Assembly (NCBI RefSeq): GCF_000018305.1
Contig: NC_009954.1
Coordinates: 780,001 to 812,000, forward strand
Reading direction: 5' to 3'
Source of the DNA: Caldivirga maquilingensis IC-167
GTDB taxonomy: Archaea > Thermoproteota > Thermoprotei > Thermoproteales > Thermocladiaceae
Length of the DNA: 32,000 nucleotides
Part shown: positions 6,230 to 31,566 of the stretch, in pieces
Numbering within the stretch: position 1 is the first letter of the stretch
Layout: the number at the start of each line of letters is the position of its first letter
Notes under the pieces: generated by a model
Databases searched by the model: none
What the model was told of the DNA's origin: nothing
What the model saw: only the letters and a program-made list of their open reading frames with translations
Translations under genes and position numbers: made by a program

Positions 6230-6375
6230 ACTACCACTAACTTGAAGGGTAATCCCTCATAATCAGATAATGCCCATCCTCCCTCTGGTTACTCAGTGGA
6301 ATGGGATTCATTGCAATTCCATGTAGGCCACGACTATGACTAAAAAGAAAAATAAGCCTCCACTTAAGGTAGCTT

Positions 6376-7371
6376 GTGACCAAGGTATCAGTACTAGTGC
6401 CGGTTAATGCTGGTGGGTTCGTTAAGAGACTTGGCCCCATGCTTAGGTTATTTTCACTACCTTACGGTGACTTTGAAATAGAGGTCACCGGTGACGTATC
6501 ATCGATAATTGAATCCAGATCCATGAGCCTTGATGCGTTATCCGGCCTTAGGCTAGCGGTTAAGGTGCTTCACGATAATTTAAGGAAACTAGACAGTGTG
6601 GTTCATGCATTCTTCTGGTACATTAGGCCTAGTGGTAGGTTAATACTTGAGACTGATCAATCCCCAGGTCAATTCTTCACAGGATACTTAAACATGGCCC
6701 CCGTTAAAACACCGGTAAGGGCATTGTATAAGGATTCAGTATTAATCACTTGGAGTAGGTGGGCTAGGGATGGGTTATTAAGGGATGGTTTTAGTGATGA
6801 GCAGGTGAAAGTGGTGCCATTACCCTACGTTGAATCATTATTCAGGGTCAAGGCAACTAAGATTAAGGCAGTAGCCTTCGTGGGTTATGATTACTATAGG
6901 AAGGGCGGTGACTTAGCCTTAAAGACTATGGCCGTGATTAAGTCCATTGACCCCTCAGTTAAGACAATATACATTGGTCAAATACCTCATGGTGTACCAA
7001 GATTCATTGATGAGTATCACGCCTACTTACCTAGATCCAGGATCCTTAAAACGTTCGCTGAATCCATGATTGCTCTAGCGCCATCCAGGCATGAGGCGTA
7101 TGGATTAGCGGCCATGGATGCAATAGCTAATAAGGCTATTGTAGTGGCCACTGACGTTGAGGGATTGGGGGAGTTCGTTAAGGTTAATGGTGGTGTAGTG
7201 TGCCCCCTAGGTGACTTAAATTGCCTAATTGAAAACACATTAAGGTACCTGGATAGGAGGGAGCATGAAGCCAGGGCAAATCTACAGCTTCAAAGACTCA
7301 TAGAGAACCATAACCTGGGTAGAATTAGAAACATGATGAAGGAGATTTACGAGGAGGCATCAAGTAAATAA
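6376..7371 (+). CDS. Glycosyltransferase family 1/4 (GT-B)
   Basis: The C-terminal domain motif SRHEAYGLAAMDAIANKAIVVATDVEGLGEFV matches the E-x7-E type GT4 signature. The start codon is GTG. Confidence 0.75.
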   Translation: MTKVSVLVPVNAGGFVKRLGPMLRLFSLPYGDFEIEVTGDVSSIIESRSMSLDALSGLRLAVKVLHDNLRKLDSVVHAFFWYIRPSGRLILETDQSPGQFFTGYLNMAPVKTPVRALYKDSVLITWSRWARDGLLRDGFSDEQVKVVPLPYVESLFRVKATKIKAVAFVGYDYYRKGGDLALKTMAVIKSIDPSVKTIYIGQIPHGVPRFIDEYHAYLPRSRILKTFAESMIALAPSRHEAYGLAAMDAIANKAIVVATDVEGLGEFVKVNGGVVCPLGDLNCLIENTLRYLDRREHEARANLQLQRLIENHNLGRIRNMMKEIYEEASSK

Positions 7372-7583
7372 TATTTAACGGAATACATTAATGCAGTGAA
7401 TCAACGTAAGGAATTAATGGTGATTAGGAAATCCTTAACTGCATTGAAAATCACTATGTAAAGTGCTACCGCATCATTCACCTGGCTTATGAAGGATGTT
7501 GATTGGCTTAATGCTTTAGGAGAATGCATTTAAATAATAATGCACCTTAACCAAGCCACCAGTGGAAGTCAAACCAGGCTGCT

Positions 7584-8405
7584 CTAGGTTACGTATGGTT
7601 TATACCATTCATCACTTAGGCTTGGTCTATTAACACTGGATGTGCCCTCCACGAATGATCTACCATTATTAACGGCTTCACTCACCAGCCTAAGATCCAG
7701 TGGTAGGCTTGGCCCAAAGTGGGCTAACGTGTCATTGGGTACGAATAATACACGTCTATTAGCCGCAAAGTCAAGTTCCTGGGGTCTATAGGTCTTAGTC
7801 TTACCCTCGTATATTATTAGGTTGGGGTTAAGTTGATTAATCAGGTTGATTAAACCATCCTTATTAGTTAAAACCATTACGCACTTAAACCCCTTAACGT
7901 AATTCAACCCAACCCTATTAAGCGCAGAGGCTACGTAAGAAGCTTCACACGGCACCACGTAATCACCCAGTGAGAATACTGCGAGAACGCCGTCAACATT
8001 AGCCTCACGCCTCATTAAATCACGGTAAATACCTACCAGCCTCAAGGCCTCCTCATCCATATCAAGTAAACCACCAATCATCTCAAAGAAGCCTAGGGCA
8101 GTGTTTAAGTTAACTGGGGTAGGTATAGCCAATACAGGTGCCAGCGCCCTCAATTGGTTAACCAACTGCCTTTGAACAGGATATGATAGTATTATTAAGT
8201 CTGGGTTTAAGTTCTTAATCAAATCAATGTTAGCTGACGTAAATGAACCAATCCTCATAACCCTCATGGCTTCACGCGGCCTATAACTCCACACATCAAC
8301 ACCCACAACCCTATCCCCAGCCCCAAGTAGGAATAGGAACTCTGTTACAGATGGATTAAGGCTAATTACCCTACGTGGCACACCCATTAACTCACCATCA
8401 ATCAC
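7584..8405 (-). CDS. Periplasmic-binding-protein type 8 (BtuF/FhuD-like) domain protein
   Basis: RVISLNPSVTEFLFLLGAGDRVVGVD and NIDLIKNLNPDLIIL are typical of PF01497 binding proteins. No N-terminal signal peptide or TM segment is visible. The start is GTG at 8405, with an alternative ATG at 8387. Confidence 0.7.
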   Translation of the reverse strand: MIDGELMGVPRRVISLNPSVTEFLFLLGAGDRVVGVDVWSYRPREAMRVMRIGSFTSANIDLIKNLNPDLIILSYPVQRQLVNQLRALAPVLAIPTPVNLNTALGFFEMIGGLLDMDEEALRLVGIYRDLMRREANVDGVLAVFSLGDYVVPCEASYVASALNRVGLNYVKGFKCVMVLTNKDGLINLINQLNPNLIIYEGKTKTYRPQELDFAANRRVLFVPNDTLAHFGPSLPLDLRLVSEAVNNGRSFVEGTSSVNRPSLSDEWYKPYVT

Positions 8406-8697
8406 CCTCCACCACCCACTTCATCATTAAGGTAAGGGGACTTGTATTTTAACCCTTCATCCCTAAACACCAGTAATACTCATAATTATTCCTCAACTCA
8501 TGGGGGGACTCAATACTTAACACCAGTATCATAATTCATTGCACATATGACTCTCCCCTTAACCTACTTCCAATGTATCAAATAAATTATATGCGTTATC
8601 ATTTAACATTACATCACCTTTGAAAAATGATATATGGGAATAATCTATTAAACTTAATTGGGGAAAATTTAAAAATATAGCGTAATGGGTCACGTCA

Positions 8698-9330
8698 ATG
8701 GATGTTAGAATTCTTTACGTAGGAATAATACTGTTAGTGGCGGCTCTTGCGGTTACTAGCTTAGGGTACTATACCCTACTACAAAAGTATAATAACTTAC
8801 AACAACTGGTGAATGGTAAGAAGCCCGTAATACAGGATATTATAGATAACTATACAATCGCAGGAATTTTAAATGCCTCTGAAGTTAAAGTTTTTATCCA
8901 GATAAAAGCATCGAATAATTATTCTGCAATTAATGAATATTCCTTCATCACTGCACCCATAAGATTAGTTGGCAATATAGAGATCCTAAGTTTTAAGTCC
9001 CCATTATATGCTGAGAATCGTTATTATGAATTCCTCCTAGACTCCTCATACTTCAATTATGTTGTTTCAGGGTATTATAATGGATGGAATTACACACTTT
9101 TACTTAATGCCACGGAGCCAATCAATAATGTTTCAAGGTTATTTCGATACGGGGCACTGGTAGCATATGGAGGGAATGAGGTTTTCTATATCAGCATTAA
9201 TGCCTTATCACCCACTGGATTATATAATTTCAATGCCAGTATATTCCTACAGATTCTTGGCGCTGAATTAGCTTACCATCATATTTACCACCTGAAGACC
9301 ACAGGAGACCCAGCCCAGGTCCACCACTAG
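8698..9330 (+). CDS. Hypothetical N-terminally membrane-anchored protein (N/Y-rich)
   Basis: It has an N-terminal TM helix ILYVGIILLVAALAVTSLGYY and several N-x-S/T sequons. A TATA-like aatttaaaaata lies ~30 nt upstream. No family was recognised. Confidence 0.55.
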   Translation: MDVRILYVGIILLVAALAVTSLGYYTLLQKYNNLQQLVNGKKPVIQDIIDNYTIAGILNASEVKVFIQIKASNNYSAINEYSFITAPIRLVGNIEILSFKSPLYAENRYYEFLLDSSYFNYVVSGYYNGWNYTLLLNATEPINNVSRLFRYGALVAYGGNEVFYISINALSPTGLYNFNASIFLQILGAELAYHHIYHLKTTGDPAQVHH

Positions 9331-14789: not shown

Positions 14790-15719
14790 TTGGGGAAAGA
14801 TTTATACGCTCAGCCCGATATCGGGTTTATGCCCGCTGTAGAGTTCGCTAATGTTACTAAGCGTTTTAATAAGATAGTTGCTGTTGAAAATATTAATCTT
14901 GTCGTCAATGATGGTGAAGTAATAGCGCTAGTTGGTCCTAATGGTGCAGGTAAGACCACGTTACTTAGAATGGCCGCAGGTGTTCTACTGCCTGATTCAG
15001 GCAAGGTGCTTGTTTACGGTATTGAGGCTCATAGAGCTGAGGCTAAGCGCCACGTGGGCTTCATGACACCCATGGATAGGGGTGTTTACTGGAGGATTAG
15101 TGCATTAGATAATTTAGTGTTTTTTGGAACACTATATGGTTTATCCATTAAGGAGGCTAGGAGAAGGGGTCTTGAGTTACTTAGGGAATTCGGCTTGGCT
15201 GAGAGGGCTAATGATTGGGTTGCAACATATAGTACAGGCATGATGAGGAGGCTTGAGTTGGCTAGGGCAATGATGCATGACCCAGACATACTGCTTCTTG
15301 ATGAACCAACCAGCGGTATTGATGTTGATGGTAAAAGAATAATACTTGACCACATAAGGAGGCTTAAGGGTAGGAAGACGATAATAATGGCTAGTCATGA
15401 CCCGCAGGAAATTGAGCTTGCTGATAGGGTTGTTTACCTGAATAGAAACATAGTGAGTACTTTACCAACCCTTAAGATTGTTAAGGTGCTTGTTAAGGGT
15501 GCTTTACCATCATTAGACGGATTCAGGATTACTGATCTTGGTGATGGCAGTTACGTTATTTATGCCAGTATTGATAAGTTTAATGACTTAATTAAGAAAT
15601 TAGCCTCAATGGATGGTAACCTCAGGGTAATTGATCTCAACGTTGAAGTTGCCTTCGCAGAGAGGAATGCGAGGATTGAGGAAAGAATGAATAGGAGGGG
15701 TGGTGGACCATGGGTTTAG
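14790..15719 (+). CDS. ABC transporter ATP-binding protein (ABC-2/DrrA-type)
   Basis: Walker A GPNGAGKTT, signature variant YSTGMMRRLELA, Walker B ILLLDEPTSGID and H-loop ASHD. The likely true start is the ATG at 14829 (MPAVEFANVTKRF). A ~95-aa C-terminal extension is present. Confidence 0.9.
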   Translation: MGKDLYAQPDIGFMPAVEFANVTKRFNKIVAVENINLVVNDGEVIALVGPNGAGKTTLLRMAAGVLLPDSGKVLVYGIEAHRAEAKRHVGFMTPMDRGVYWRISALDNLVFFGTLYGLSIKEARRRGLELLREFGLAERANDWVATYSTGMMRRLELARAMMHDPDILLLDEPTSGIDVDGKRIILDHIRRLKGRKTIIMASHDPQEIELADRVVYLNRNIVSTLPTLKIVKVLVKGALPSLDGFRITDLGDGSYVIYASIDKFNDLIKKLASMDGNLRVIDLNVEVAFAERNARIEERMNRRGGGPWV

Positions 15720-16519
15720 CAGCTAAACTATACTCCTTCGTAGTAATAAGGGGGTTTAAGGTTTGGGTAAGCTATAAGACTCAAGTAGCCTTAAACTTCA
15801 TAAGCTGGACAATACCGGTTTTCCTCTACTACTTCATAGGCTTAACCTTCGGGGCAAGTAAAATGTCAGCGGCAATAGCATCAAACTACAGTTATACAGC
15901 GTTTGCAACCGTTGGCATTGCCTTCCAAGGCTACTTCTCATCAGCCGTAGCCACATTAGCTGGTAGGATTAGGAATGAGGAATTAATAGGCACCCTAGAG
16001 TACCAGATGGCCGCACCCCTTAGGCCTATGTCACTCATGTTCTACTCCACGGTATGGGGATTCGTAATAAACTCAATAAGCACAGTCACAGTATTGGCAA
16101 TAGGCTATGGCTTAGGAATAAAGTACATTATTAATCCCCTCTCAACATTCGTGGTTCTACTACTATACATGGTGTCGATAATAGGCTTAAACCTAATATC
16201 AGGTGCAGTGGTCCTTATAGTTAAGCAGGGTAATCCAGTGGCATTATTCACCTCAGTGGCCACTAATATTCTTGGTAACGTGGTCTTCCCAGTATCAATA
16301 CTACCCACCTGGCTTAAGGACATGAGCTACGCCTTATCCTTAACATGGGCCCTTGATGGTTTAAGGAAGGCAATGTTATCTGGGGAGGGGTTAGGCAGTA
16401 TGATTAATGACTTAGTGATACTATCCATACTGTCAGTAATATACATAATAATAGGTATATGGTTAACCAACTACGCCTTCAAGAGAATACTGGAGCAGGG
16501 TACTGTGCACATGTACTAA
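15710..16519 (+). CDS. ABC-2 type transporter permease
   Basis: The start overlaps the ATPase stop. It is a six-TM-like hydrophobic protein of 269 aa, typical of an ABC-2 membrane partner. Confidence 0.8.
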   Translation: MGLAAKLYSFVVIRGFKVWVSYKTQVALNFISWTIPVFLYYFIGLTFGASKMSAAIASNYSYTAFATVGIAFQGYFSSAVATLAGRIRNEELIGTLEYQMAAPLRPMSLMFYSTVWGFVINSISTVTVLAIGYGLGIKYIINPLSTFVVLLLYMVSIIGLNLISGAVVLIVKQGNPVALFTSVATNILGNVVFPVSILPTWLKDMSYALSLTWALDGLRKAMLSGEGLGSMINDLVILSILSVIYIIIGIWLTNYAFKRILEQGTVHMY

Positions 16520-21364: not shown

Positions 21365-21793
21365 GTGGCCGTGAGAGTGAGGGTCAGGTTAAGGAGTAGT
21401 GGCTCCATTGAGGTATCAACCTCAGCATTAGTTAACACAGGCTTTGAGACTGAGAGGCCACAGGTATTAATACCCATAAATCTAGCTAAGGTACTTAAAT
21501 TATGGCCACCCATAGGTAATGCCTACATTGTTGAACTTGGAACCGCCGGCGGACCCATTAGGGAATACGTGATTCCGAATTCCATAGAGATCACTGTGAT
21601 CACAGCTGATAGGGAATCCAGGGCTGTGACCTGCGATGCGGTGGTATCGCATGTTGAGGAGGAGGTTATTATTAATGATAAGCTCTCCGAGGAGCTTGGC
21701 ATAATTATACTAGCTGCCGGTAGTGGAAGGTGGAGATTTACAGATGATTCAGAAGGCACAGTGAGGTATTCTGAGACGCCGCAATACTGGTGA
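21365..21793 (+). CDS. Retropepsin-like (clan AA aspartic protease fold) protein with NTG instead of DTG
   Basis: The pattern (basic N-terminus)...IEVSTSALVNTGFE...VLIPINLAKVLKL...VIINDKLSEELGIII resembles archaeal AF_0612-type or retropepsin-like proteins (xALVDTGA...LLGxDxLxxLG). The family call is by eye only. Confidence 0.5.
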   Translation: MAVRVRVRLRSSGSIEVSTSALVNTGFETERPQVLIPINLAKVLKLWPPIGNAYIVELGTAGGPIREYVIPNSIEITVITADRESRAVTCDAVVSHVEEEVIINDKLSEELGIIILAAGSGRWRFTDDSEGTVRYSETPQYW

Positions 21794-22310
21794 ATTATAA
21801 GGAAACCATTATTTAGTGAGTTAACTATGAATCACCCTAAAGTAGAATTCAAGGCTCCTTACCCTTGATCTTAACTCTTCTCCTTTAGTTTAATCATTCT
21901 TTATGAGTCCTGGATTTTTATGACATATTATGAATGATCTCAACAGAGTTAACTTAAATGGATGCGCACATTAACTTAACCATGGATTAAGGCTAGCATA
22001 ACCTCAGAAACATCATCAAGTAATCTAGTCGATTCCTCAAGTAGTGAGGAAGGTTAATGCATGGTGGAGTAAATTCTCAGCAACAATATACTTACTTGAC
22101 TAATCATGCAGATTAAGTTCCCTGCAATGTTAATCCTACTAGTTGAAGCATCATTCTACATATATAAGTTAATTACCTTAACCTAGTCATGAATAATCCT
22201 AGTCAAGCCATATAGGTAGTAACTGCATTGTGTATGAATTCTCTTGTAACAGGTAAAACATTGATATGTAACGCGGGGGATTGAATGGAAATGTTAATAA
22301 TAAGTATCCC

Positions 22311-22387
22311 TGGAGCCCCGGCCGGGATTTGAACCCGGGGCCTACGGGTCTGCAGCCCGCCGCTCTACCGTGCTGAGCTACCGGGGC
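22311..22387 (-). tRNA. tRNA-Cys (anticodon GCA), CCA encoded
   Basis: The reverse complement folds as follows. Acceptor GCCCCGG/CCGGGGC. D arm GCTC-AGCACGGTA-GAGC. Anticodon arm GCGGG-CTGCAGA-CCCGT. T arm CCGGG-TTCAAAT-CCCGG. The discriminator is U73, the Cys identity element, followed by CCA. Confidence 0.9.
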
Positions 22388-22495
22388 TTAGTTAACATTA
22401 TAGGCATGGATTTTATAAGCTTTATTACGGTACTAAGTAATGAAATTTAGGGAAAGATTCAGGTTTAGGTTATGGGAAGTACCTTTTACTTTAAC

Positions 22496-23773
22496 TTACT
22501 CATATCTTAGTGTTTGAGCTGGTGGTATTCTAGTAGCCCTTATGGCTGGTACTAATGCAGCAATGATGTTTGTGGCTAATGGAACAATGAATAGAAGCAC
22601 TATGTATGGTGCAGTGAGGGTTATGGGTATTGGTAGGCTTATGCCTACTGATGATGAGGATGATGCAGATAAGGCACTTGATGCCGCAGCACCCCTGAAG
22701 CCTCCCCTGAATCCCACCCCTGGGCTGGCGCCGAATAGTGATGATGTGTGTATTAGGTGTGTTAAGGCAACTAAAAGTGAGACACCTATTATTGAACCTA
22801 TTACACCAACTATTACTGCCTCGGTTATTAATAGGAGTGGTATTGATCTCCTACTGAACCCAACTGCACGCATTATCCCGAACTCCCTAGTCCTCTGGAT
22901 AACATTTATTGTAGTGGTATCAAATATCCATATTCCAATTATCACGAAGCTTATGCCCGATATGAAGGCTAGGAAGAGTTCAAGTGTTGTGAAGAATTGA
23001 TTAACGCTTGAAAGCACCGTGGATAGGTTAAGTACCTGGTCCTGAGGGTAAAGCGACTGAAGCATACTTGATACTGAATTAACATTACTGGGTTTATCAA
23101 CATGGATAGTTAATCCACTTAAGACGCCTGATGGGTCAATTTCACTGAGGAATGATGATGAATCCATGAATATTGCCGTATTAGGATTAACCCCAATTAA
23201 ACCAACACTACCAGGTTTCAAAACCCCACCCACTATTGCCGTCACAGTCTTACCATTAACAGTTATGGTTAGTAACTGACCCGGGTAAATTATCTCCTGG
23301 CCAGTGTTAGTGAACGCAACATCATAACCCACCAGAACAACGCCAGTTTGTAGAATTGGGTTACCGCTGATTAATGCGTCACTAAGGGATGTGACACCAT
23401 ACATTTGCATTAACTCATCCACCGTGACTCCGACTAATTGAACACGTTGAGGATGACCATTAACATTTATGCTACCTGAGGCCTCAAGCAAAGGCTCCAC
23501 ACTACTAACGTGTGGTAGTGATGATACTGTGGCTAGGTCGGTTAAGGTTAATTGCGCCGAGCCACTTGGGAATAGAACAATAGTGTTAACCCCAAACACG
23601 CTCTCAAAGAAGCCAGTGGTTAGTGACTTAAAACCCTGACCGGCACCAACAGCTAGGCCTAGGGCTATTATTGCTATAACTATGCCCGCAATAGCCCCAA
23701 TAGTCCTACCTCTCCTCTCCCATAATGCCCTCCAGGCTAAGTTAAGGTAATCAATGACCCTCACTACCACCAC
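22496..23773 (-). CDS. MacB/FtsX-type ABC transporter permease
   Basis: It has an N-terminal TM helix, then a ~230-aa extracytoplasmic domain, then an FtsX-like three-TM bundle containing QRTREFGIMRAVGFSRR. The GTG start overlaps the end of the upstream gene by 23 nt. Confidence 0.85.
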   Translation of the reverse strand: MVVVRVIDYLNLAWRALWERRGRTIGAIAGIVIAIIALGLAVGAGQGFKSLTTGFFESVFGVNTIVLFPSGSAQLTLTDLATVSSLPHVSSVEPLLEASGSINVNGHPQRVQLVGVTVDELMQMYGVTSLSDALISGNPILQTGVVLVGYDVAFTNTGQEIIYPGQLLTITVNGKTVTAIVGGVLKPGSVGLIGVNPNTAIFMDSSSFLSEIDPSGVLSGLTIHVDKPSNVNSVSSMLQSLYPQDQVLNLSTVLSSVNQFFTTLELFLAFISGISFVIIGIWIFDTTTINVIQRTREFGIMRAVGFSRRSIPLLLITEAVIVGVIGSIIGVSLLVALTHLIHTSSLFGASPGVGFRGGFRGAAASSALSASSSSSVGISLPIPITLTAPYIVLLFIVPLATNIIAALVPAIRATRIPPAQTLRYE

Positions 23774-26378
23774 CCCTCCTCCTTAAGGCAAGTACAACCA
23801 CGGCAACTACAATAATCACCACCACCGCAATTGTGATGTAGGTTACTAACCCATACCTACTACCACTTACTCTACTAGCCGTGGTTGTGAAGACCCTTGT
23901 GAAGAACCTACCACTACTATTGCTACCTGGGAAGCCAGCGAACCTGGTTGAATTCCCAAACACCCTAATCGGCACACTGTAGTAAATCCTGTGAAGCTGC
24001 CCATACTGATCAGTGAATGTGATTATGAAGATTATTGAACCGTTAAGCGGCCTAACTGGTAGCACTGTGAAGGCAACATTACTTAGTGACTGGGATCCAA
24101 GTGAACCGAGGTAAATACTCCTACCACTAATGGCTTCTAATCCGGGACTGGTTAGCATTGTTACGTTCAGGTTATTTGCAGTTACTGGACCTGAGTTAAC
24201 TAGTGTTAATGATATTGATACATCAGTACCCACCGTGGCTACTGTTGGTGCAATGGTGTAACCAGTTATTAGGATTTGCGGTAACCCAGCAACACTCATG
24301 GTTATTTGGCCCTCAACATTACCCTCACCACCAGCGTAACTGTACATTAGGGTGTAGCTTAGTGAGACTGAGCTTGATGATGATGGTATGGCTGCAGGTA
24401 CCGTTAAGTAGTAGGTTCCCCCGGCCCCAACTTCATTAATATGATACTCAGTATTAGTAATAGACATGCCGTTCACTGAATTGAAGATTAGCGTTAAATT
24501 GTAGAGTGGTACTGGTTCATTATTACGTATACCTAGTATTAACTTACCTAAACCAGCATTGAGGGTTGAGTTAAGTGGATAAACCACGGCTATGACACTG
24601 GGTGCACTTGACACCCCTAGGTTTAATTCACCATTAACGTTACTTACGTACTTGCCTACGCCGTATGTTAAAACATAGTTAATCACCACTGAGCCCGCTG
24701 ATAAAGGTACCATTAACGGTACAGTAACCATGCGTGCACTATACGGTTGTATTTCACCAATGTTAAAACTAGTCACTAGTGGATACGCCCCCTGTGCTGA
24801 GGTTATTGTGAAGGTGACGTTACTTAGGCTTGATCCTAAATTATTCCTGATAACGATGGGTATTGTCTCATTACCAATACCTATGGTTGAGTTAAGTGGG
24901 TAAACAGTTAATATTGACTGGGGGCTAATTACGTTGACTGGTAATGACCCAGTTATGCTTCCACCATATGTGCTTGGTGTTAGGTAGTAGTAGAGTGTGT
25001 AGCTAATGGTTGCCGTGCCTGTTGTTGATGGGGTCATTACGGGTACTGAAATATAGTATGAACCACCTGGGGGTAGTTCAGGTATATTATACTCACTGCC
25101 ACCTAAACTTAACCCACCTGCGGAGTTAAACACTAGGCTAACATTGTATAATGTCACTGAGGCTGAGTTAAGTACACGAAGCGTTAATTCCCCTAATCCA
25201 GGGCTTATTGTTGAGTTAAGGAGTAGTACTGATAATGGGTTAGCCACACCATAGATGCTTAAGGTGAGTGAACCTTCTCCACTGCTTACGTAACCGTTAG
25301 GTAACTGGAATGATAATACGTAACTTATTGAGGCGGTTGTGGCGGATAATGGTACAACCACCGGTACAGTGAGGGTTAAGTAACCGCCACTGGGTATGCT
25401 TGATACCATTATTGTACTATTACCCCTTAGTATCAATCCCTGTGTTGAAACCAGTTGAATAGTCACATTATACAGTGTTACCGGGTTTAGATTACGTACA
25501 CCTATCTCAAGAATCCCAGGCCCTGGACTAAGCGTGGAGTTAAGTGGATATACGGTAACTTGGCTTGCTGACACTGATAAGGTACTCATACTTATTGTTG
25601 AGGAGCCTGATACTGAATCACCGCTTTGAGTTATGCCACTGTAGGTTATGGTTAATGTCACTGAGGCAGTTGAAGTGGGTACTACGTTAATCATTAATGG
25701 TAGTGATTCACCGGGATTAAGGTAATTAATTACAGTTGATACTCCACTGGGGCTTAGGTAGGCTCCATTGGCCTGAATTGAAATAGCCATATTGTATATT
25801 GGTCCGCTTCCATTATTTGTTACAGTTAATGTGATTGGGTTGATTGAACCATATATTAAGTAGCCTTGATTAACGTTAATGTCAATATTCGGTTCACCGT
25901 ATATCACTATAGGTAATGTTATGCTTGTTGAACCTGAACCACCAGCATTAACGTATGATGATGTTAATTGAGAGTACTTGGATTCTCCACCCCAGTTAAC
26001 GTTAAGGTTTGCCTGACAATTAATGGGTAATGAACCATTTATAAGGTAAGTTAAGGTTAATTCCTGTTGGGGACTAATCCAATCAATGAATATTGAGCCT
26101 GGTGAAACAGTGTAATTACCGCATGAGAGGGTTGGTTGTAATTGGAAGTAGACATCATATAAGTAGTAGCCACCAGTGTACTCTACGGTTAACGTTAACT
26201 TAGAGACGCCAACGGGTGTTAGTGATGGCGTGGCTTGTTCATTTAATATAACGAAGGGTGGTGGGGTGTTTTGAGCGTAGGTTACCTTAAGGAAACCCAC
26301 TAGGGCTAGTAGGCTTACCGCCACCATTATTGTAGTTAACTTTACTTCACTTACTGAGGTTTTCGATAACGGGTTCAT
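23751..26378 (-). CDS. Large surface protein (875 aa) with tandem Ig-like (CARDB / COG1361-like) modules, a signal peptide and a C-terminal TM anchor
   Basis: The N-terminal hydrophobic segment IMVAVSLLALVGFLKVTYA|QN looks like a signal peptide. The motif VYPLNST..G.G.L...VRN....LYNV is repeated, and N-x-S/T sequons are very numerous. The C-terminus has a TM helix YITIAVVVIIVVAVVVLAL followed by RRRGGG. Confidence 0.8.
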   Translation of the reverse strand: MNPLSKTSVSEVKLTTIMVAVSLLALVGFLKVTYAQNTPPPFVILNEQATPSLTPVGVSKLTLTVEYTGGYYLYDVYFQLQPTLSCGNYTVSPGSIFIDWISPQQELTLTYLINGSLPINCQANLNVNWGGESKYSQLTSSYVNAGGSGSTSITLPIVIYGEPNIDINVNQGYLIYGSINPITLTVTNNGSGPIYNMAISIQANGAYLSPSGVSTVINYLNPGESLPLMINVVPTSTASVTLTITYSGITQSGDSVSGSSTISMSTLSVSASQVTVYPLNSTLSPGPGILEIGVRNLNPVTLYNVTIQLVSTQGLILRGNSTIMVSSIPSGGYLTLTVPVVVPLSATTASISYVLSFQLPNGYVSSGEGSLTLSIYGVANPLSVLLLNSTISPGLGELTLRVLNSASVTLYNVSLVFNSAGGLSLGGSEYNIPELPPGGSYYISVPVMTPSTTGTATISYTLYYYLTPSTYGGSITGSLPVNVISPQSILTVYPLNSTIGIGNETIPIVIRNNLGSSLSNVTFTITSAQGAYPLVTSFNIGEIQPYSARMVTVPLMVPLSAGSVVINYVLTYGVGKYVSNVNGELNLGVSSAPSVIAVVYPLNSTLNAGLGKLILGIRNNEPVPLYNLTLIFNSVNGMSITNTEYHINEVGAGGTYYLTVPAAIPSSSSSVSLSYTLMYSYAGGEGNVEGQITMSVAGLPQILITGYTIAPTVATVGTDVSISLTLVNSGPVTANNLNVTMLTSPGLEAISGRSIYLGSLGSQSLSNVAFTVLPVRPLNGSIIFIITFTDQYGQLHRIYYSVPIRVFGNSTRFAGFPGSNSSGRFFTRVFTTTASRVSGSRYGLVTYITIAVVVIIVVAVVVLALRRRGGGSEGH
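24565..25540 (-). repeat. Intragenic tandem modules with ~323-nt period
   Basis: The anchor sequence g(t/g)tgagttaag(t)gg recurs on the + strand at 24565, 24887, 25210 and 25534, giving spacings of 322, 323 and 324 nt, or ~108 aa per module. More diverged modules flank this core. Confidence 0.75.
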
Positions 26379-26392
26379 ACGATATCGGCAAT

Positions 26393-26442
26393 CTATAAAC
26401 CTTATAAACCATACTCACCAGTTATATGTACTAGTTTAAATA
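26393..26442. promoter_or_regulatory. Bidirectional promoter region between the surface-protein operon and the ABC ATPase
   Basis: gtttaaata (26434-26442) lies ~27 nt upstream of the ATG at 26466. The tandem ctataaac/cttataaacc (26393-26410) reads TTTATAAG/TTTATAG on the minus strand, ~25 nt upstream of the ATG top at 26378. Confidence 0.4.
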
Positions 26443-26465
26443 CCCTAGAAGTATGCGAATTAACC

Positions 26466-27182
26466 ATGGCGTTCATTGAGTGTAGGGATGTTTGGAAGTA
26501 CTACGGCGATTACCCAGCCTTAAGGGAAGTTGATTTAACAATCAATGAGGGTGAATTCCACTGCGTAATCGGACCCAGTGGTAGTGGTAAAACCACATTA
26601 CTAAGCCTAATAGGTGGTCTTGATAGGGTTAGTAAAGGTTATTTGAGGGTGGGGTCTTATGAGCTTCATAATCTCGGTGATAGTGAACTAGATGAATACA
26701 GGAATAAGTACGTTGGCTTCGTCTTTCAATTATTCTACCTAATACCACGCATGAATGTTGTTGAGAACGTTGAATTACCATTAATAGCCAGGGGAGTTGG
26801 TTTAAGGGAGAGGAGGAAGCTGGCTCTTGAGGCGCTTGAGGCTGTGGGTATGAGGGATAAGGCCTACAGGAAGCCAAGTCAATTAAGTGGTGGTGAACAG
26901 CAGAGGGTCGCTATTGCAAGGGCTATTGTAACTCGACCAAGGCTACTCCTTGCTGATGAACCAACAGGTAACCTTGATAGCAAGTCAGCTGTTAATGTAA
27001 TGGAGATCTTCAGGAGGCTTAACCATGAGTTAGGAATGACTATAATAATGGTTACTCACAACCTTGAGCTAATTAGGTACTGTCACAGGGTCTCAAGGAT
27101 AAGCGACGGTAGAATAACCAGAACCTACAGTGTCTCTGAGGCCAAGAACTACGATGAGTTAATTAGAGAATTAGCTGAGTGA
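26466..27182 (+). CDS. ABC transporter ATP-binding protein (MacB/LolD-type, COG1136-like)
   Basis: Walker A GPSGSGKTT, Q-loop GFVFQ, signature LSGGEQQRVAIARA, Walker B LLLADEPTGNLD and H-loop VTHN. Confidence 0.9.
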   Translation: MAFIECRDVWKYYGDYPALREVDLTINEGEFHCVIGPSGSGKTTLLSLIGGLDRVSKGYLRVGSYELHNLGDSELDEYRNKYVGFVFQLFYLIPRMNVVENVELPLIARGVGLRERRKLALEALEAVGMRDKAYRKPSQLSGGEQQRVAIARAIVTRPRLLLADEPTGNLDSKSAVNVMEIFRRLNHELGMTIIMVTHNLELIRYCHRVSRISDGRITRTYSVSEAKNYDELIRELAE

Positions 27183-28396: not shown

Positions 28397-28639
28397 CTAC
28401 TGCTTACCCTTAATCCTTATCCTAACGGTAATAACGCCGTCACTCTCATCTAGATTTAATAATTCATTATTGGTTACCCTAGCCCAATTAATTAAATCCT
28501 GCTTAGCAGCTGGATCAGTGGCTATAACCTTAATAACCTGACCAGGCTTAGCTAATCTAGCAGCCTTAGCGGTTTCAAGCACTGGAATTGGGCATACCTT
28601 TCCCTTAACATCAACCGTAATCTCATTATCCTCCTCCAT
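28397..28639 (-). CDS. tusA: TusA/SirA-family sulfurtransferase
   Basis: It is 80 aa and carries the conserved Cys-Pro motif VDVKGKVCPIPVL. Confidence 0.85.
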   Translation of the reverse strand: MEEDNEITVDVKGKVCPIPVLETAKAARLAKPGQVIKVIATDPAAKQDLINWARVTNNELLNLDESDGVITVRIRIKGKQ

Positions 28640-28758
28640 GGTTAAGGTGGGGTTAGTTAATTTAATATGCTATTTCACTTAATGCATAATATGCCCCCTA
28701 ATGTAGAAAATAACCAATTAATGATCCTATATAAGCCAAGGAGTTAGGAGCCTGAATT

Positions 28759-29220
28759 ATGAGTAGTAAAACAGTGGGTATGGTTGTCCAAAGCGGTGCC
28801 GCTAATAGAATATGCTGCGTAGTAGTCTACGCAGCCGCCGCTTTAGCCTCAGGCAGGAAGGTGGTCCTCCACCTGGTTAATGAGGGTTTAGTTGCCTTTA
28901 GGAAGGATGTGGCTGGTAAGATTTGGAGCAGTGAGAAGCCTGATGATTGGTCAATATTTCCTGAACAGTATAGGAGTTATGTTGAGGTATTCTTAAAGAA
29001 TGTTAATGGCGCCATTAAGTCAGGTTCCTTTAAGAATTGGCATGAGATGCTGGCTGAGCTTAAGAAGGAGTATGGTGATAATCTAAAAATATATGCATGC
29101 CCCCTAGCCGCTCAAATGTATAATATTAAGAAGGAGGATTTATTAGACATTGTTGATGCAATAGCTGGCGCTGAAACATTCCTAGCAGAGGTTGAGGGAG
29201 GTACAGTATTTGTATTTTGA
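28759..29220 (+). CDS. DsrE/DsrF-like family protein
   Basis: The ~150-aa protein has an N-terminal MVVQSGAANRICCVVVYAAAALASG and a C-terminal YACPLAAQMYNIKKEDLL...AGAETFL. It is divergently paired with tusA. Confidence 0.7.
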   Translation: MSSKTVGMVVQSGAANRICCVVVYAAAALASGRKVVLHLVNEGLVAFRKDVAGKIWSSEKPDDWSIFPEQYRSYVEVFLKNVNGAIKSGSFKNWHEMLAELKKEYGDNLKIYACPLAAQMYNIKKEDLLDIVDAIAGAETFLAEVEGGTVFVF

Positions 29221-29439: not shown

Positions 29440-31566
29440 TTATGAGGGGAGGGTTAACTCCAGGGTTGCTTCAGTGTACTGTATGTTAACTAGTAGTAGT
29501 TTACTTGACTCATTATAATCATAATTAACTGGAGTTCCATTAACCTTAACACTAATTGGCTTACTGGGTGAGTAAATGAGGATTTCACCAGGTTCAACTA
29601 GTGTTAAGGTGGCTTTATAAAGTGGCCTTGAGTACTCCTCATTAATCCTGATTACTGAGGCTGGCATCAATGCGTACTTGGTTAACCCAATTACCCTTGG
29701 TTTACTTGAATCATTGAATGCAAGGATTAAGTGGGGCTCAGCCTTCCTTACACATCCCTCCGCTTTACCATCATGAGTAGTCATAGTGTTCACCCTCAGT
29801 AAGACCGAGTCCTTAGGTAAACCCAATTTACCAGATTCCAGTGTGTAGCATACTTGGTCAAGATCCCTATGTACGTTAAATAAAGTGATCACAGTAATAT
29901 CCCTCACAGTGGTTAAGGCGATTAATGGTACTGGTTCAGTATATGGATCATTTAGGAACATTTCATCAGCTAGTTTAGCTGGCTCATCAGGCCTAAGCAC
30001 AATCCATTGCGGGGTCAAGAACCTCCTAAGTAAATTAACATTAACACCCCTCCTCCAGTATGGGTCCTTATCAATGGCGTCACCAATACCCATTGCGGAG
30101 AAGAATAATATCCTGGCCAGTAGGTCAGCGTAAGCGTGATGATCCGTTGTCACCATGACGTCGAAGAAGGGTGCGTAACCCAGTTGAATCGCTAATTGCG
30201 AATCATATGCATTATAATAGAGTAGCAGATGCTTAGGTAGTGATGACCCGTAATCCGGGCTTGTTCTAATCATTAATGCATTATTATGCTTAAAGCCTAT
30301 GAAGTAGTGGTACATATCAGGCATGCATAATTCAATAAGTAAATCATGCTTCCCCGCGGCATTGAATAATGCATCAATATACCTCTCAAGGGCACCAACC
30401 TCACTCATGTACACTTCACTGCACCTCTGCCTTAACGTTGTTAACCAATCATGCTTAACAGACATAATGCCCTTACTCTTAAGCGCCTTGAATAGGTCAT
30501 CGAAGAACTCCTCAGGTTGCAGTAGGCATGCTGCATCCTTAACAAGCCTTGAGGAGTATTTTTGAGCATACGGTGAATTCTTGGATAAATACCTTATGTG
30601 TAAGCTTACTATTGGTCCAAGTACCTTAGATAACGCATCCAAGTCGCTTCCCAATTCAGGAACCTCCTTATACTCCAATGCTCCACCATCCTCAGTACTC
30701 TTAGGGTACCACCATGAGTCAACTTGGTAATACTTAACGCCAATCCCTTTCTCATCCATGTATCTCTTAATCTCAAGCATTGTTTGAGTATAATTCATGC
30801 CAGGTAATGTCCTATACCAGTACATCCCACCTGTATCTGTCCAGTATTGAAGTGAATCCAGGTAATTCCGGTTAACTTCAATGGATGTCTTAGTTCTACC
30901 GTAAAATCCTCTAATCCAACGTCCCCACCTTGATAATGCCTCATTAGGTGACTTGCCATACACCACCACTGAGGAGAGGTTGAATCCACTGGGTATTTCC
31001 CTAATGGTTCCGCTCAAGCCCAAGATAGCCTTAAACCCAACGGAACCTGGATTTAATTTAAGGAGCTGAGGGGCCCTTGGCTCAAGGGCCGATACCAGCA
31101 TTGTGTTAAGTCCACTGGAGTTAATAAACATTCCAAAGGAACCCAATACCGTGGGTTCCTTGAAATCACCAGCCCTTATGAAAACAGGCCTAATCCAGTT
31201 ATACGGCGTATAACCAAACCCCCTATCTAGTAATACATGGGCATTAAATGAAGCTGTATCAACATCAGCCTCCCTACCAACACTCCTGTTCACACTTGAA
31301 TTGAATAATATGCTTGATACTATAATTGGGTCGTTTAAGTAAGCCTTAACCGAGAATGTTAAATCCCCAGGCTCTGCTCTAATTGAATATACTATATACT
31401 TACCCAATGAGTCAACGTTCTCATGCGACTCATACCCTTTGGGGCTAAGTAACTTACCATTAACCAGTGGTGAAGCCCTAAGCAACAGTGAGTCGCCAAG
31501 AATTAACTCCCATGCTGCATCATCGTGAAGTACCGTAAGCCTTAAATCATTCCACTTAATCATCAT
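29440..31566 (-). CDS. Large cytoplasmic protein, putative clan GH-D (GH36 / raffinose-synthase-like) glycoside hydrolase
   Basis: There is no signal peptide. LQYWTDTGGMYWY...GVKYYQVDSWWY, MSVKHDW and MIRTSPDY parallel GWCSW.AFY...IIDDGWQ, GVKVDxQ and R.SDDF of GH36-like enzymes. This assignment is by eye only. Confidence 0.4.
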   Translation of the reverse strand: MMIKWNDLRLTVLHDDAAWELILGDSLLLRASPLVNGKLLSPKGYESHENVDSLGKYIVYSIRAEPGDLTFSVKAYLNDPIIVSSILFNSSVNRSVGREADVDTASFNAHVLLDRGFGYTPYNWIRPVFIRAGDFKEPTVLGSFGMFINSSGLNTMLVSALEPRAPQLLKLNPGSVGFKAILGLSGTIREIPSGFNLSSVVVYGKSPNEALSRWGRWIRGFYGRTKTSIEVNRNYLDSLQYWTDTGGMYWYRTLPGMNYTQTMLEIKRYMDEKGIGVKYYQVDSWWYPKSTEDGGALEYKEVPELGSDLDALSKVLGPIVSLHIRYLSKNSPYAQKYSSRLVKDAACLLQPEEFFDDLFKALKSKGIMSVKHDWLTTLRQRCSEVYMSEVGALERYIDALFNAAGKHDLLIELCMPDMYHYFIGFKHNNALMIRTSPDYGSSLPKHLLLYYNAYDSQLAIQLGYAPFFDVMVTTDHHAYADLLARILFFSAMGIGDAIDKDPYWRRGVNVNLLRRFLTPQWIVLRPDEPAKLADEMFLNDPYTEPVPLIALTTVRDITVITLFNVHRDLDQVCYTLESGKLGLPKDSVLLRVNTMTTHDGKAEGCVRKAEPHLILAFNDSSKPRVIGLTKYALMPASVIRINEEYSRPLYKATLTLVEPGEILIYSPSKPISVKVNGTPVNYDYNESSKLLLVNIQYTEATLELTLPS

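What the first reader, a model, noticed from the sequence alone, without database searches (positions are those of the whole stretch)
22496..27182. MacB/FtsX-type ABC transporter genetically fused to a giant double-anchored Ig-repeat surface glycoprotein: candidate uncharacterised envelope system
The 875-aa protein has a signal peptide, about 7-8 Ig-like (CARDB/COG1361-like) modules dense in N-glycosylation sequons, and a C-terminal TM helix followed by RRRGGG. Its gene overlaps the start of the MacB-like permease gene by 23 nt. The matching LolD/MacB-type ATPase is transcribed divergently from a shared 87-bp promoter region. In bacteria, MacB-type pumps act by mechanotransmission through their periplasmic domain to partner proteins (MacA/TolC, LolC/LolA, FtsEX/hydrolase activators). 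Archaea lack those partners. Here the tightly coupled partner is a long repetitive surface protein, which suggests an ATP-driven module that remodels, extends or secretes through the S-layer or pseudo-periplasm, or exports a substrate along an Ig-repeat stalk. No function can be read from the sequence.
Basis: partly seen in the sequence, partly recalled or inferred. Interest (0 to 1): 0.7.

Follow-up and report, generated by a model that had tools for sequence, protein, structure and literature searches.

The report
Archaea-wide ABC motor with Ig-stalk partner
The three genes are real, and they form a gene cluster kept together across at least a dozen archaeal lineages: a MacB-type ABC "motor" paired with a membrane-tethered chain of Ig-like domains, a partnership no searchable paper describes and whose function is unknown.

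Summary
The window is Caldivirga maquilingensis IC-167. It encodes a 238-aa LolD/MacB-class ATPase (26466-27182 +). An 87-bp gap separates it from a divergent 875-aa secreted protein (23751-26378 -). That gene overlaps a 425-aa MacB_PCD+FtsX permease (22496-23773 -) by 14-23 nt. The 875-aa protein has a signal peptide, seven beta-sandwich modules, a flexible linker, one C-terminal TM helix and an RRR tail.

Two words in the title are wrong. "Fused" is wrong because the ORFs are separate and in different frames. "Double-anchored" is wrong because the N-terminus looks like a cleaved signal peptide.

A profile of the protein's last 250 aa hits exactly one ORF, always inside the ABC cluster, in 54 of 57 informative archaeal loci. 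These carry 28 taxon labels, including Thermoproteota, Nitrososphaeria, Micrarchaeota, Asgard, methanogens and haloarchaea. Only 1 of 21 bacterial loci has such a hit. In 33 of 48 pairs the partner gene overlaps the permease gene.

The family has a conserved core of about 420-550 aa, and Caldivirga added three internal repeats. The cluster is best read as a type VII (mechanotransmission) ABC system with a new class of partner. Physical contact and substrate remain untested. Ten literature searches found no description.

The parts
26466..27182 (+). ABC ATPase, 238 aa, of the LolD/MacB/FtsE class (ABW01607).
   Evidence: Pfam ABC_tran scores 111.6 bits. The top NCBIfam models are LolD and FtsE, both below their equivalog cutoffs. 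The best PDB matches are MJ0796 (1f3o, E 1.4e-56), Spr0694 (5xu1_A) and LolD.
26379..26465 (.). 87-bp divergent intergenic region. A/T-rich TATA-like boxes lie about 24-31 nt upstream of each start codon: TTTATAAG at 26409-26402 on the minus strand and TTTAAATA at 26435-26442 on the plus strand. This spacing suggests two leaderless transcripts.
   Evidence: The sequence was read directly. Promoter function is inferred from the known archaeal TATA spacing and has not been tested.
26277..26378 (-). Signal peptide of the 875-aa protein (aa 1-34), with a predicted cleavage site at ...VTYA|QN.
   Evidence: AF2 places a helix at residues 9-29 followed by a disordered stretch. Homologues across the family have the same n-h-c layout with small residues at -1/-3. 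No signal-peptide predictor was available.
25899..26273 (-). Module D1 (aa 36-160), the membrane-distal beta-sandwich. It is conserved with Vulcanisaeta.
   Evidence: The AF2 model. Identity to the Vulcanisaeta 540-aa orthologue is 44% across D1-D2-R1. The module boundary was set by eye.
25563..25898 (-). Module D2 (aa 161-272), which carries the Pfam CARDB hit.
   Evidence: CARDB matches aa 168-245 at 29.3 bits against a cutoff of 22.7. The AF2 model agrees.
24279..25562 (-). Four paralogous Ig-like repeats R1-R4 (aa 273-700, about 107 aa each). Each has conserved sequons at LNST and YNVT. Three of the four are extra copies relative to Vulcanisaeta.
   Evidence: Pairwise alignment scores are 121-211 against 41 +/- 8 for shuffled sequence. 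Amino-acid identity is 38-42%. No DNA-level tandem repeat was found. The Vulcanisaeta orthologue has only one R module.
23949..24278 (-). Module D7 (aa 701-810), the membrane-proximal CARDB-like domain. It is the most widely conserved part of the family.
   Evidence: The most distant family members match only aa ~635-800. Alignment A2 shows the conserved N-x-G...A..V...GD...Y.D pattern.
23850..23948 (-). Disordered linker (aa 811-843) that is rich in S, T, G and N.
   Evidence: pLDDT is below 50 across residues 810-844. A variable low-complexity tether of similar length is present in all 33 aligned members.
23754..23849 (-). C-terminal TM helix (aa 844-865) and cytoplasmic tail RRRGGGSEGH (aa 866-875). 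The RRR/GG codons (AGGAGGAGGGGTGG, 23783-23770) also form the Shine-Dalgarno-like site and the start region of the permease gene.
   Evidence: The sequence and the AF2 helix at 842-868. A TM helix followed by a basic tail is conserved in the family, but no residue in the TM is conserved.
22496..23773 (-). MacB/LolC-type permease (type VII ABC), 425 aa, or 422 aa from the GTG at 23764. It has four TM helices and an extracytoplasmic domain of about 190 aa (aa ~60-250). The TM3-TM4 loop (aa 345-379) is disordered and rich in G, S and A.
   Evidence: Pfam MacB_PCD and FtsX. The AF2 model has pLDDT 83.6. The top Foldseek PDB matches are MacB, LolC/LolE, Spr0695, YtrF, HrtB and YbbP.

Best explanation
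The three genes encode one envelope machine: a homodimeric type VII (MacB/LolC-class) ABC transporter plus a dedicated extracytoplasmic partner.

Proposed mechanism:
- The partner is exported by Sec, loses its signal peptide and is N-glycosylated.
- It stays tethered beside the permease by a single C-terminal TM helix and a flexible linker of about 35 aa.
- Its conserved membrane-proximal CARDB module (D7) docks on the permease's extracytoplasmic Porter/Sabre domain.
- The remaining Ig-like modules, seven here and about four in the family core, project as a stalk into the pseudo-periplasm towards the S-layer.
- ATP binding and hydrolysis in the cytoplasm are transmitted through the permease (mechanotransmission) to work done outside the membrane.
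- The most likely work is extracting or expelling a hydrophobic or amphipathic molecule (peptide, lipid or lipid-linked compound) from the outer leaflet and handing it to, or along, the partner.

What is shown:
- the folds and families of all three proteins;
- the architecture of the partner;
- conserved, translationally coupled linkage across archaea.

What is inferred:
- physical contact and which domain makes it;
- glycosylation;
- the direction of the work and the nature of the substrate.
For: Identity of the ABC parts:
- Pfam MacB_PCD covers 205 of 207 profile positions, alongside FtsX.
- The AF2 model matches MacB, LolC/E, Spr0695, YtrF, HrtB and YbbP at E 1e-18 to 1e-9.
- The ATPase is closest to MJ0796 and LolD.

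Linkage:
- Saccharolobus has ATPase -> 851-aa homologue -> permease, with the genes overlapping.
- Vulcanisaeta has the same divergent layout with a 540-aa homologue.
- Methanolobus has ABC_tran -> 453 aa -> MacB_PCD/FtsX.
- In 80 loci fetched with a permease profile, the family HMM hits exactly one ORF per locus, always in the cluster. This holds in 54 of 57 informative archaeal loci and 1 of 21 bacterial loci.

Coupling:
- 33 of 48 partner-permease junctions overlap (19 of them by 4 nt) and 14 more lie within 30 nt.
- Most of the 38 co-directional ATPase-partner junctions also overlap by 4 nt.
- Pairwise distances of the permease and the partner's last domain correlate at r = 0.89, against 0.76 for permease and ATPase.

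Architecture:
- Matches are collinear from N-part to N-part and C-part to C-part, so there is a conserved core with a variable repeat number.
- Signal peptide, TM helix and basic tail are universal in the family.
- Sequon positions are conserved.

Precedent: each characterised type VII system is defined by a dedicated partner, namely MacA, LolA, EnvC, TesA or BceS (PMC12646458).
Against: - No interaction was modelled or measured, because no multimer prediction was available.
- The partner's TM helix has no conserved residues beyond hydrophobicity, so a specific helix-helix contact is not supported.
- The Ig modules match only generic Ig arrays such as hydin and alpha-2-macroglobulin/complement MG domains. 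None is a known adaptor or channel.
- A related 406-422-aa subfamily sits after ABC-2-type exporters instead. The protein may therefore be a more generic ABC-associated surface module than a MacB-specific partner.
- Thermoproteus, one Bathyarchaeia locus and one Halobacteriota locus have the permease without the partner nearby.
- Three Sulfolobales/Desulfurococcaceae MAG loci have the partner-permease pair without an adjacent ATPase.
- Distance correlations are expected for any co-inherited operon and do not prove contact.
Confidence: 0.55

Rival explanations
1. The Ig-repeat protein is the cargo rather than a subunit. In a Lol-like way, the MacB-type transporter would extract the protein's C-terminal TM anchor from the membrane, to release it or hand it to the S-layer or cell surface.
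For: The permease model matches LolC/LolE with bound lipoprotein as well as it matches MacB. The partner is anchored by a featureless hydrophobic helix on a long flexible tether. Type VII systems typically extract membrane-embedded moieties (PMC12646458).
Against: The 4-nt overlaps imply roughly stoichiometric synthesis, as for subunits. There is no conserved processing motif before the TM helix, and the basic tail is a classic stop-transfer anchor. There is one permease gene, not a LolC/LolE pair, and the LolCE model scores 43.9 bits against a cutoff of 362.
Confidence: 0.15
2. The transporter is an ordinary SalXY/MacB-like resistance pump for peptides or toxins. The Ig protein is only a passive accessory, for example a shield, a scaffold or a spacer towards the S-layer, and takes no part in the mechanical cycle.
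For: Source databases annotate related permeases as an 'antimicrobial peptide transport system'. Makarova et al. 2014 refer to SalXY-like ABC systems in Methanococcales (PMC4158269). Related Ig proteins also accompany ABC-2 exporters.
Against: Bacterial relatives of the same permease clade work without such a gene, since 20 of 21 bacterial loci lack it, while archaeal loci almost never lack it. The membrane-proximal domain co-varies with the permease more tightly than the ATPase does.
Confidence: 0.2
3. The Ig protein is an independent S-layer or adhesin-type surface glycoprotein, and its neighbourhood with the ABC genes has no functional meaning.
For: COG1361-type proteins are loosely called 'S-layer domain' proteins in the literature. 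The protein has the composition and sequon density of a thermoacidophile surface protein.
Against: The linkage holds across 28 archaeal taxon labels with overlapping stop and start codons. Sulfolobales members coexist with the known SlaA/SlaB S-layer (established knowledge). The flanking genes differ between Caldivirga, Vulcanisaeta and Saccharolobus while the cluster stays intact.
Confidence: 0.05

Closest known systems
MacAB-TolC tripartite efflux pump (type VII ABC; E. coli, A. baumannii)
   Same: The permease has the same four-TM FtsX fold and a MacB_PCD extracytoplasmic domain. The ATPase belongs to the same class. It also has a dedicated partner that reaches away from the membrane.
   Different: The ATPase is a separate gene and is not fused to the permease. 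The partner is not a HlyD/MacA membrane-fusion protein; it is a chain of Ig-like modules anchored at the C-terminus rather than the N-terminus. There is no outer membrane and no TolC.
LolCDE-LolA lipoprotein extractor
   Same: It is among the top structural matches to the permease (9rld, 7arh), and LolD is among the top matches to the ATPase. It also suggests the idea of pulling a membrane-anchored molecule out of the outer leaflet.
   Different: There is a single permease gene, implying a homodimer, rather than a LolC/LolE pair. No LolA-like chaperone is present. NCBIfam LolCE and LolD scores are far below their equivalog cutoffs.
FtsEX-EnvC/PcsB and YbbAP-TesA (type VII ABC with an extracytoplasmic protein partner)
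   Same: They share the principle that the partner protein defines the function and that ATP-driven motion is transmitted to it (PMC12646458). YbbP is a structural match.
   Different: The partner here is neither a coiled-coil hydrolase activator nor an enzyme, and no catalytic domain was detected. The extracytoplasmic domain of the permease is the MacB type, not the smaller FtsX type.
Spr0693-0694-0695 (S. pneumoniae) and YknXYZ / YtrEF (Bacillus): MacB-like systems of single-membrane bacteria
   Same: The cell has a single membrane, the ATPase and permease are separate genes, and the structural match is close (5xu1, 9o9x, 5f9q).
   Different: Their accessory proteins are MacA-like fusion proteins or small membrane proteins, not Ig-repeat type I membrane proteins.
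MJ0796 of Methanocaldococcus jannaschii (a classic ABC ATPase crystal structure)
   Same: It is the best solved relative of the window's ATPase (E 1.4e-56). It is an archaeal LolD-like ATPase whose transporter was never characterised (PMC8277102).
   Different: Only the ATPase has been studied. Whether its neighbours form the same three-gene cluster could not be checked here.
COG1361 / CARDB 'S-layer domain' proteins
   Same: The 875-aa protein and its homologues carry CARDB or NPCBM_assoc hits. UniProt calls it 'Conserved repeat domain'.
   Different: That name is only a loose label. No paper found here links the family to ABC transporters or shows that it forms an S-layer.

Membership tests
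Type VII ABC transporter (MacB/FtsX superfamily) | Permease with the four-TM FtsX fold | tested here: met
   Pfam FtsX scores 51.6 bits against a cutoff of 25.5. The AF2 model (pLDDT 83.6) has four long helices. Foldseek matches MacB, LolC/E and HrtB.
Type VII ABC transporter (MacB/FtsX superfamily) | Large extracytoplasmic domain between TM1 and TM2 of the MacB periplasmic-core type | tested here: met
   MacB_PCD scores 48.2 bits against a cutoff of 27 and covers profile positions 1-205 of 207. There are structural matches to isolated MacB, LolE and YknZ extracytoplasmic domains (3ftj, 5udf, 5f9q).
Type VII ABC transporter (MacB/FtsX superfamily) | Cognate ATPase of the LolD/MacB/FtsE clade | tested here: met
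   The best PDB relatives are MJ0796, Spr0694, LolD, YbbA, YtrE and MacB. The top NCBIfam models are LolD and FtsE, both below their equivalog cutoffs.
Type VII ABC transporter (MacB/FtsX superfamily) | Dedicated partner protein that physically binds the transporter | tested here: inconclusive
   Conserved adjacency in 54 of 57 archaeal loci and overlapping genes argue for a partner. No interaction prediction or experiment was possible.
Type VII ABC transporter (MacB/FtsX superfamily) | Mechanotransmission: work done outside the membrane with no passage of substrate across it | not testable with these tools
   This requires structures in different nucleotide states, or biochemistry.
MacAB-TolC tripartite efflux pump | MacA/HlyD-family membrane-fusion protein and a TolC-like outer-membrane channel | tested here: not met
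   No HlyD, Biotin_lipoyl or OEP hits appear in the cluster or its flanks. The middle gene is a CARDB-type Ig array.
MacAB-TolC tripartite efflux pump | ATPase fused N-terminally to the permease (MacB equivalog) | tested here: not met
   The genes are separate. The NCBIfam MacB equivalog scores 66.6 bits against a cutoff of 966.
LolCDE | Paired LolC/LolE permeases reaching the equivalog scores | tested here: not met
   There is one permease gene. TIGR02212 lolCE scores 43.9 bits against 362, and LolD scores 214.8 against 307.75.
FtsEX | FtsX and FtsE equivalog scores, plus a coiled-coil hydrolase-activator partner | tested here: not met
   FtsX models score 18-53 bits against cutoffs of 225-255, and FtsE scores 209.8 against 264.85. 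The partner is all-beta.
CARDB / COG1361-type Ig-repeat surface proteins | At least one CARDB-type beta-sandwich domain above the Pfam threshold | tested here: met
   CARDB scores 29.3 bits against a cutoff of 22.7. Homologues hit CARDB, NPCBM_assoc or DUF11. AF2 shows seven beta-sandwiches.
Archaeal S-layer protein | Being the lattice-forming envelope protein | not testable with these tools
   There is no sequence or fold match to solved S-layer proteins among the top hits. Sulfolobales members coexist with SlaA/SlaB (established knowledge). Settling this needs envelope proteomics.
Type 1 secretion of giant repeat adhesins (LapA/RTX type) | A T1SS-type ABC exporter, and a substrate without a Sec signal that carries a C-terminal secretion signal | tested here: not met
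   The ABC system is MacB-type. The protein has an N-terminal Sec-type signal and a C-terminal TM anchor.
Anti-phage defence systems (PADLOC) | A match to a defence-system protein model beyond the generic ATPase fold | tested here: not met
   The large protein has no hit. The other two show only generic ABC/ATPase and LolE-TM similarities.

The most novel reading that the evidence does not exclude
The cluster is the founding example of an archaea-wide, so far undescribed class of type VII ABC machine. Its partner would be an Ig-domain stalk bridging the membrane motor to the S-layer, making it an archaeal counterpart of tripartite pumps or of the Lol pathway. The number of spacer modules would be tuned to the width of the pseudo-periplasm. 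Partner lengths are about 4 modules (400-660 aa) in Micrarchaeota, Nitrososphaeria, Asgard and methanogens, 7 modules in Caldivirga, Saccharolobus and Metallosphaera, and 10-14 modules (1194-1579 aa) in Desulfurococcales and Ignisphaera.
Probability: 0.25. Interest if true: 0.8.

Novelty: new variant of a known kind. Interest (0 to 1): 0.62.

Why it matters
Type VII ABC transporters are currently described as bacterial machines whose function is set by their partner protein: MacA/TolC, LolA, EnvC or TesA (PMC12646458). Archaea have the motor but none of those partners, and no archaeal member has been characterised, even though the MJ0796 ATPase is a textbook ABC structure.

This analysis identifies a near-universal candidate archaeal partner. 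It is a family with about 2,500 clusters at 50% identity at E <= 1e-10, annotated only as "hypothetical" or "conserved repeat domain".

This makes the question "what do MacB-type ABC systems do in an S-layer envelope?" directly testable in genetically tractable hosts such as Sulfolobus, Methanosarcinales or Thermococcales. The answer could reveal how archaea move material across, or sense, the pseudo-periplasm.

Tried and rejected
- **Fourth conserved component.** A 165-201-aa four-TM gene recurs near several clusters, but the copies are not homologous between lineages. Rejected.
- **Permease signature for partner-associated systems.** The length of the TM3-TM4 loop (19-84 aa) and the size of the extracytoplasmic domain vary by lineage, not by presence of the partner. 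Rejected.
- **Recent or hypervariable ("periscope"-type) DNA repeats.** TRF finds no repeat of the module period, and R1-R4 are only 38-42% identical. The expansion is old.
- **Sequon enrichment beyond composition.** Not significant: 17 against 13.6 +/- 3.2. Positional conservation does hold.
- **Defence-system membership.** None.
- **Sequence search of the PDB with the large protein.** Nothing below E = 0.05. Foldseek gives only generic Ig arrays.
- **Word-indexed homologue searches of the large protein.** Only 6 and 42 hits, none with an informative name.
- **Literature.** None found a description of this cluster. Makarova 2014, 2019 and 2021 do not cover it.
Full report
**Source and observation**

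The window is from Caldivirga maquilingensis IC-167. All three proteins are 100% identical to ABW01605-ABW01607 on a 2,077,567-bp contig.
- the permease at 22496-23773 (-), 425 aa;
- the large protein at 23751-26378 (-), 875 aa;
- the ATPase at 26466-27182 (+), 238 aa;
- an 87-bp gap between the two divergent starts.

The two minus-strand ORFs overlap by 23 nt if the longest permease ORF is taken. RefSeq uses the GTG at 23764 (422 aa), which gives a 14-nt overlap. They are in different frames, so "genetically fused" should read "overlapping, probably translationally coupled". The codons for the RRRGG tail (AGGAGGAGGGGTGG) also form a Shine-Dalgarno-like element just before the permease start codons.

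In the 87-bp gap, A/T-rich TATA-like boxes lie 24-31 nt upstream of each start codon. That spacing fits two leaderless divergent transcripts, which is an inference from known archaeal promoter geometry. The flanking genes are housekeeping genes: argininosuccinate synthase, SfsA, D-aminoacyl-tRNA deacylase and a tRNA-Cys. The cluster is therefore not in an obvious mobile island.

**The ABC parts**

The permease has Pfam MacB_PCD (48.2 bits, profile positions 1-205 of 207) and FtsX (51.6 bits). Its AF2 model (pLDDT 83.6) matches MacB, LolC/LolE, Spr0695, YtrF, HrtB, YbbP and BceB.

The ATPase's best solved relatives are M. jannaschii MJ0796, Spr0694, LolD, YbbA, YtrE and MacB.

All NCBIfam equivalog models (MacB, LolCE, LolD, FtsX, FtsE) score far below their cutoffs. 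This is therefore a type VII ABC transporter, but it is not an orthologue of any named bacterial system.

**The large protein**

AF2 (pLDDT 75.8) gives the following layout:
- an N-terminal helix at residues 9-29;
- seven beta-sandwich modules;
- a disordered stretch at 810-844;
- a C-terminal helix.

I divide the modules as D1 (36-160), D2 (161-272, which carries the CARDB hit), R1-R4 (273-700) and D7 (701-810). R1-R4 are clear paralogues, with alignment scores of 121-211 against 41 +/- 8 for shuffled sequence and 38-42% identity. They have no DNA-level repeat, so the duplication is old.

The protein has very few charged residues and is rich in S, T, N and G. It has 17 sequons. This is about eight times the density of its cytoplasmic neighbours but not above a composition shuffle. 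Sequon positions are nevertheless retained: 14 of 16 in a 67%-identical orthologue and 8 of 9 in Vulcanisaeta. Family-wide the median is 19.6 per 1000 aa, against 2.5 in the permeases. This supports real N-glycosylation.

The N-terminus ends in ...VTYA|QN. Across the family the same n-h-c layout ends in small residues at -1/-3. The protein is therefore most likely a type I membrane protein with one anchor, not "double-anchored".

Sequence search of the PDB finds nothing. Foldseek finds only generic Ig arrays such as hydin and alpha-2-macroglobulin/complement MG domains.

- A Saccharolobus MAG has ATPase -> 851-aa homologue -> permease, with overlapping genes.
- Vulcanisaeta moutnovskia has the same divergent layout as Caldivirga, with a 540-aa homologue. 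That homologue aligns to D1-D2-R and again to R4-D7-TM, so it has one R module instead of four.
- Methanolobus tindarius has ABC_tran -> 453 aa -> MacB_PCD/FtsX.

I then fetched 80 loci from one genome per species using a permease profile. I annotated them with my own ORF calls and HMMs. The results were:
- The 49 "middle" proteins form a single phmmer-connected family.
- An HMM of the last 250 aa hits exactly one ORF per locus, always inside the ABC cluster. This holds in 54 of 57 informative archaeal loci and in only 1 of 21 bacterial loci (Oribacterium).
- The archaeal loci carry 28 taxon labels. They include Thermoproteales, Thermofilaceae, Sulfolobales, Desulfurococcales, Nezhaarchaeota, Methanomethylicota, Nitrososphaeria, Wolframiiraptor, Marsarchaeota, Micrarchaeota, Aenigmatarchaeota, Njord- and Baldrarchaeota, Methanophagales, Methanosarcinales, Thermococci and Halosimplex.
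- The usual order is ATPase -> partner -> permease. Methanophagales, Methanosarcinales and Halosimplex have partner -> ATPase -> permease.
- The inverted ATPase is a peculiarity of Caldivirga and Vulcanisaeta.
- 33 of 48 partner-permease junctions overlap (19 of them by 4 nt) and 14 lie within 30 nt. Most of the 38 co-directional ATPase-partner junctions also overlap by 4 nt.
- Pairwise distances of the permease and the partner's last domain correlate at r = 0.89, against 0.76 for permease and ATPase. This shows co-inheritance as a unit, not contact.

Exceptions:
- Thermoproteus, one Bathyarchaeia locus, one Halobacteriota locus and one unclassified archaeal locus have the permease without the partner.
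- Three Sulfolobales/Desulfurococcaceae MAG loci have the partner-permease pair but no adjacent ATPase.

**Family anatomy**

Matches to the Caldivirga protein are collinear. N-terminal parts align to N-terminal parts, and aa ~640-870 aligns to C-terminal parts. The most distant members match only around D7.

The core is therefore a signal peptide, about four Ig modules, a low-complexity tether, a TM helix and a basic tail, roughly 420-550 aa in total. Lineage-specific spacer expansion follows this pattern:
- 400-660 aa in Micrarchaeota, Nitrososphaeria, Asgard and methanogens;
- 851-875 aa in Saccharolobus, Metallosphaera and Caldivirga;
- 963-979 aa in Nezhaarchaeota;
- 1194-1579 aa in Desulfurococcales and Ignisphaera.

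D7 carries the CARDB-type pattern N-x-G...A..V...GD...Y-x-D. The TM helix is conserved only in hydrophobicity.

In a library of 1.84 billion 50%-identity representatives, the family profile finds 7,250 proteins at E <= 1e-3, 2,563 at E <= 1e-10 and 221 at E <= 1e-30. Where the source databases name these proteins at all, the names are "hypothetical protein" or "conserved repeat domain".

**How it most likely works**

Every characterised type VII ABC system is defined by a dedicated partner, and it does its work outside the membrane by mechanotransmission (PMC12646458). Here the partner would be the Ig-stalk protein.

I propose a complex of two ATPases, two permeases and one or more tethered partners:
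- D7, held on a tether of about 35 aa, docks on the MacB-type extracytoplasmic domain.
- The distal modules reach into the pseudo-periplasm. Seven modules would span roughly 25-30 nm, assuming about 4 nm per Ig domain (my estimate).

The extracytoplasmic domain is the complete MacB/LolC type rather than the FtsX type. The closest systems (MacB, LolCDE, HrtBA, YbbAP) all extract or expel molecules from the outer leaflet. I therefore favour extraction or expulsion of a hydrophobic or amphipathic compound with hand-off to the partner, over regulation of a hydrolase.

The folds, the architecture and the linkage are shown. Contact, direction and substrate are inferred.

**Rivals**

- The Ig protein is itself the cargo, with Lol-like extraction of its anchor.
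- It is a passive accessory of an ordinary peptide-resistance pump.
- It is an unrelated surface protein.

The last is hard to reconcile with the conservation and the gene overlaps.

One complication is that a related 406-422-aa subfamily (Bathyarchaeia-like) sits directly after ABC-2-type exporters in four loci. The Ig protein may therefore be a more general "ABC-exporter-associated" envelope module.

**Comparison and novelty**

This works like a type VII ABC/partner system and meets the sequence and fold criteria of that superfamily. It fails the defining features of MacAB-TolC (no MacA or TolC, and an unfused ATPase), of LolCDE (a single permease, no LolA, scores far below cutoff) and of FtsEX.

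Ten full-text searches found no description of the cluster, and reading the most relevant comparative-genomics and type VII reviews added none. The library lacks most subscription journals, and the neighbourhood is visible in public genome browsers, so an unnoticed mention cannot be excluded.

I rate the finding as a new variant of a known kind: a known motor with a new, archaea-wide class of partner.

Noticed in passing
window 22311-22387 (-): A tRNA-Cys (GCA) gene lies 108 nt downstream of the permease stop on the same strand, inside an otherwise ORF-free gap of about 700 bp (21794-22495) (ARAGORN; Rfam 70.1 bits).
   Followed up: partly
window 14790-16519 (+): A second, unrelated ABC exporter: a 309-aa ABC_tran ATPase overlapping a 269-aa ABC-2-type membrane protein. 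No Ig-repeat gene lies next to it.
   Followed up: partly
L086 5001-6251, L087 5001-6221, L089 5001-6269, L088 1239-2507: A 406-422-aa subfamily of the same Ig-protein family (Bathyarchaeia-like metagenome contigs) lies directly after ABC-2-type exporters (ABC_tran plus two ABC2_membrane genes) instead of MacB-type permeases. The family may therefore partner with more than one class of ABC exporter.
   Followed up: partly
L043 (Thermocladium modestius JCM 10088), about 6300-9200: In this close relative, the partner and permease genes appear as several short fragments (207 and 239 aa; 99, 106, 162 and 71 aa). This is either pseudogenisation or frameshift errors in a draft assembly.
   Followed up: no
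window 29440-31566 (-): A 708-aa ORF with no Pfam family at E <= 0.001 and 8 sequons (11 per 1000 aa). It may be another uncharacterised protein.
   Followed up: no
window 28397-29220: A divergent pair of sulfur-relay-type genes: TusA (80 aa, minus strand) and a DsrE/DsrF-like protein (153 aa, plus strand).
   Followed up: no
window 21365-21793 (+): A 142-aa ORF convergent with the cluster has no Pfam or NCBIfam hit.
   Followed up: no
protein cluster of P0006: One member of the >=90%-identity Saccharolobus cluster of the 851-aa partner protein (P0178) is labelled 'Candidatus Micrarchaeaceae archaeon'. This could be binning contamination or very recent transfer between host and DPANN symbiont.
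   Followed up: no
L051, L073, L067 (bacterial loci): In some CPR and gammaproteobacterial loci a very large ORF (2336, 2137 and 1854 aa, no TM called) directly precedes the ATPase -> permease pair. It is not hit by the archaeal family HMM. It may be an analogous but unrelated partner.
   Followed up: no
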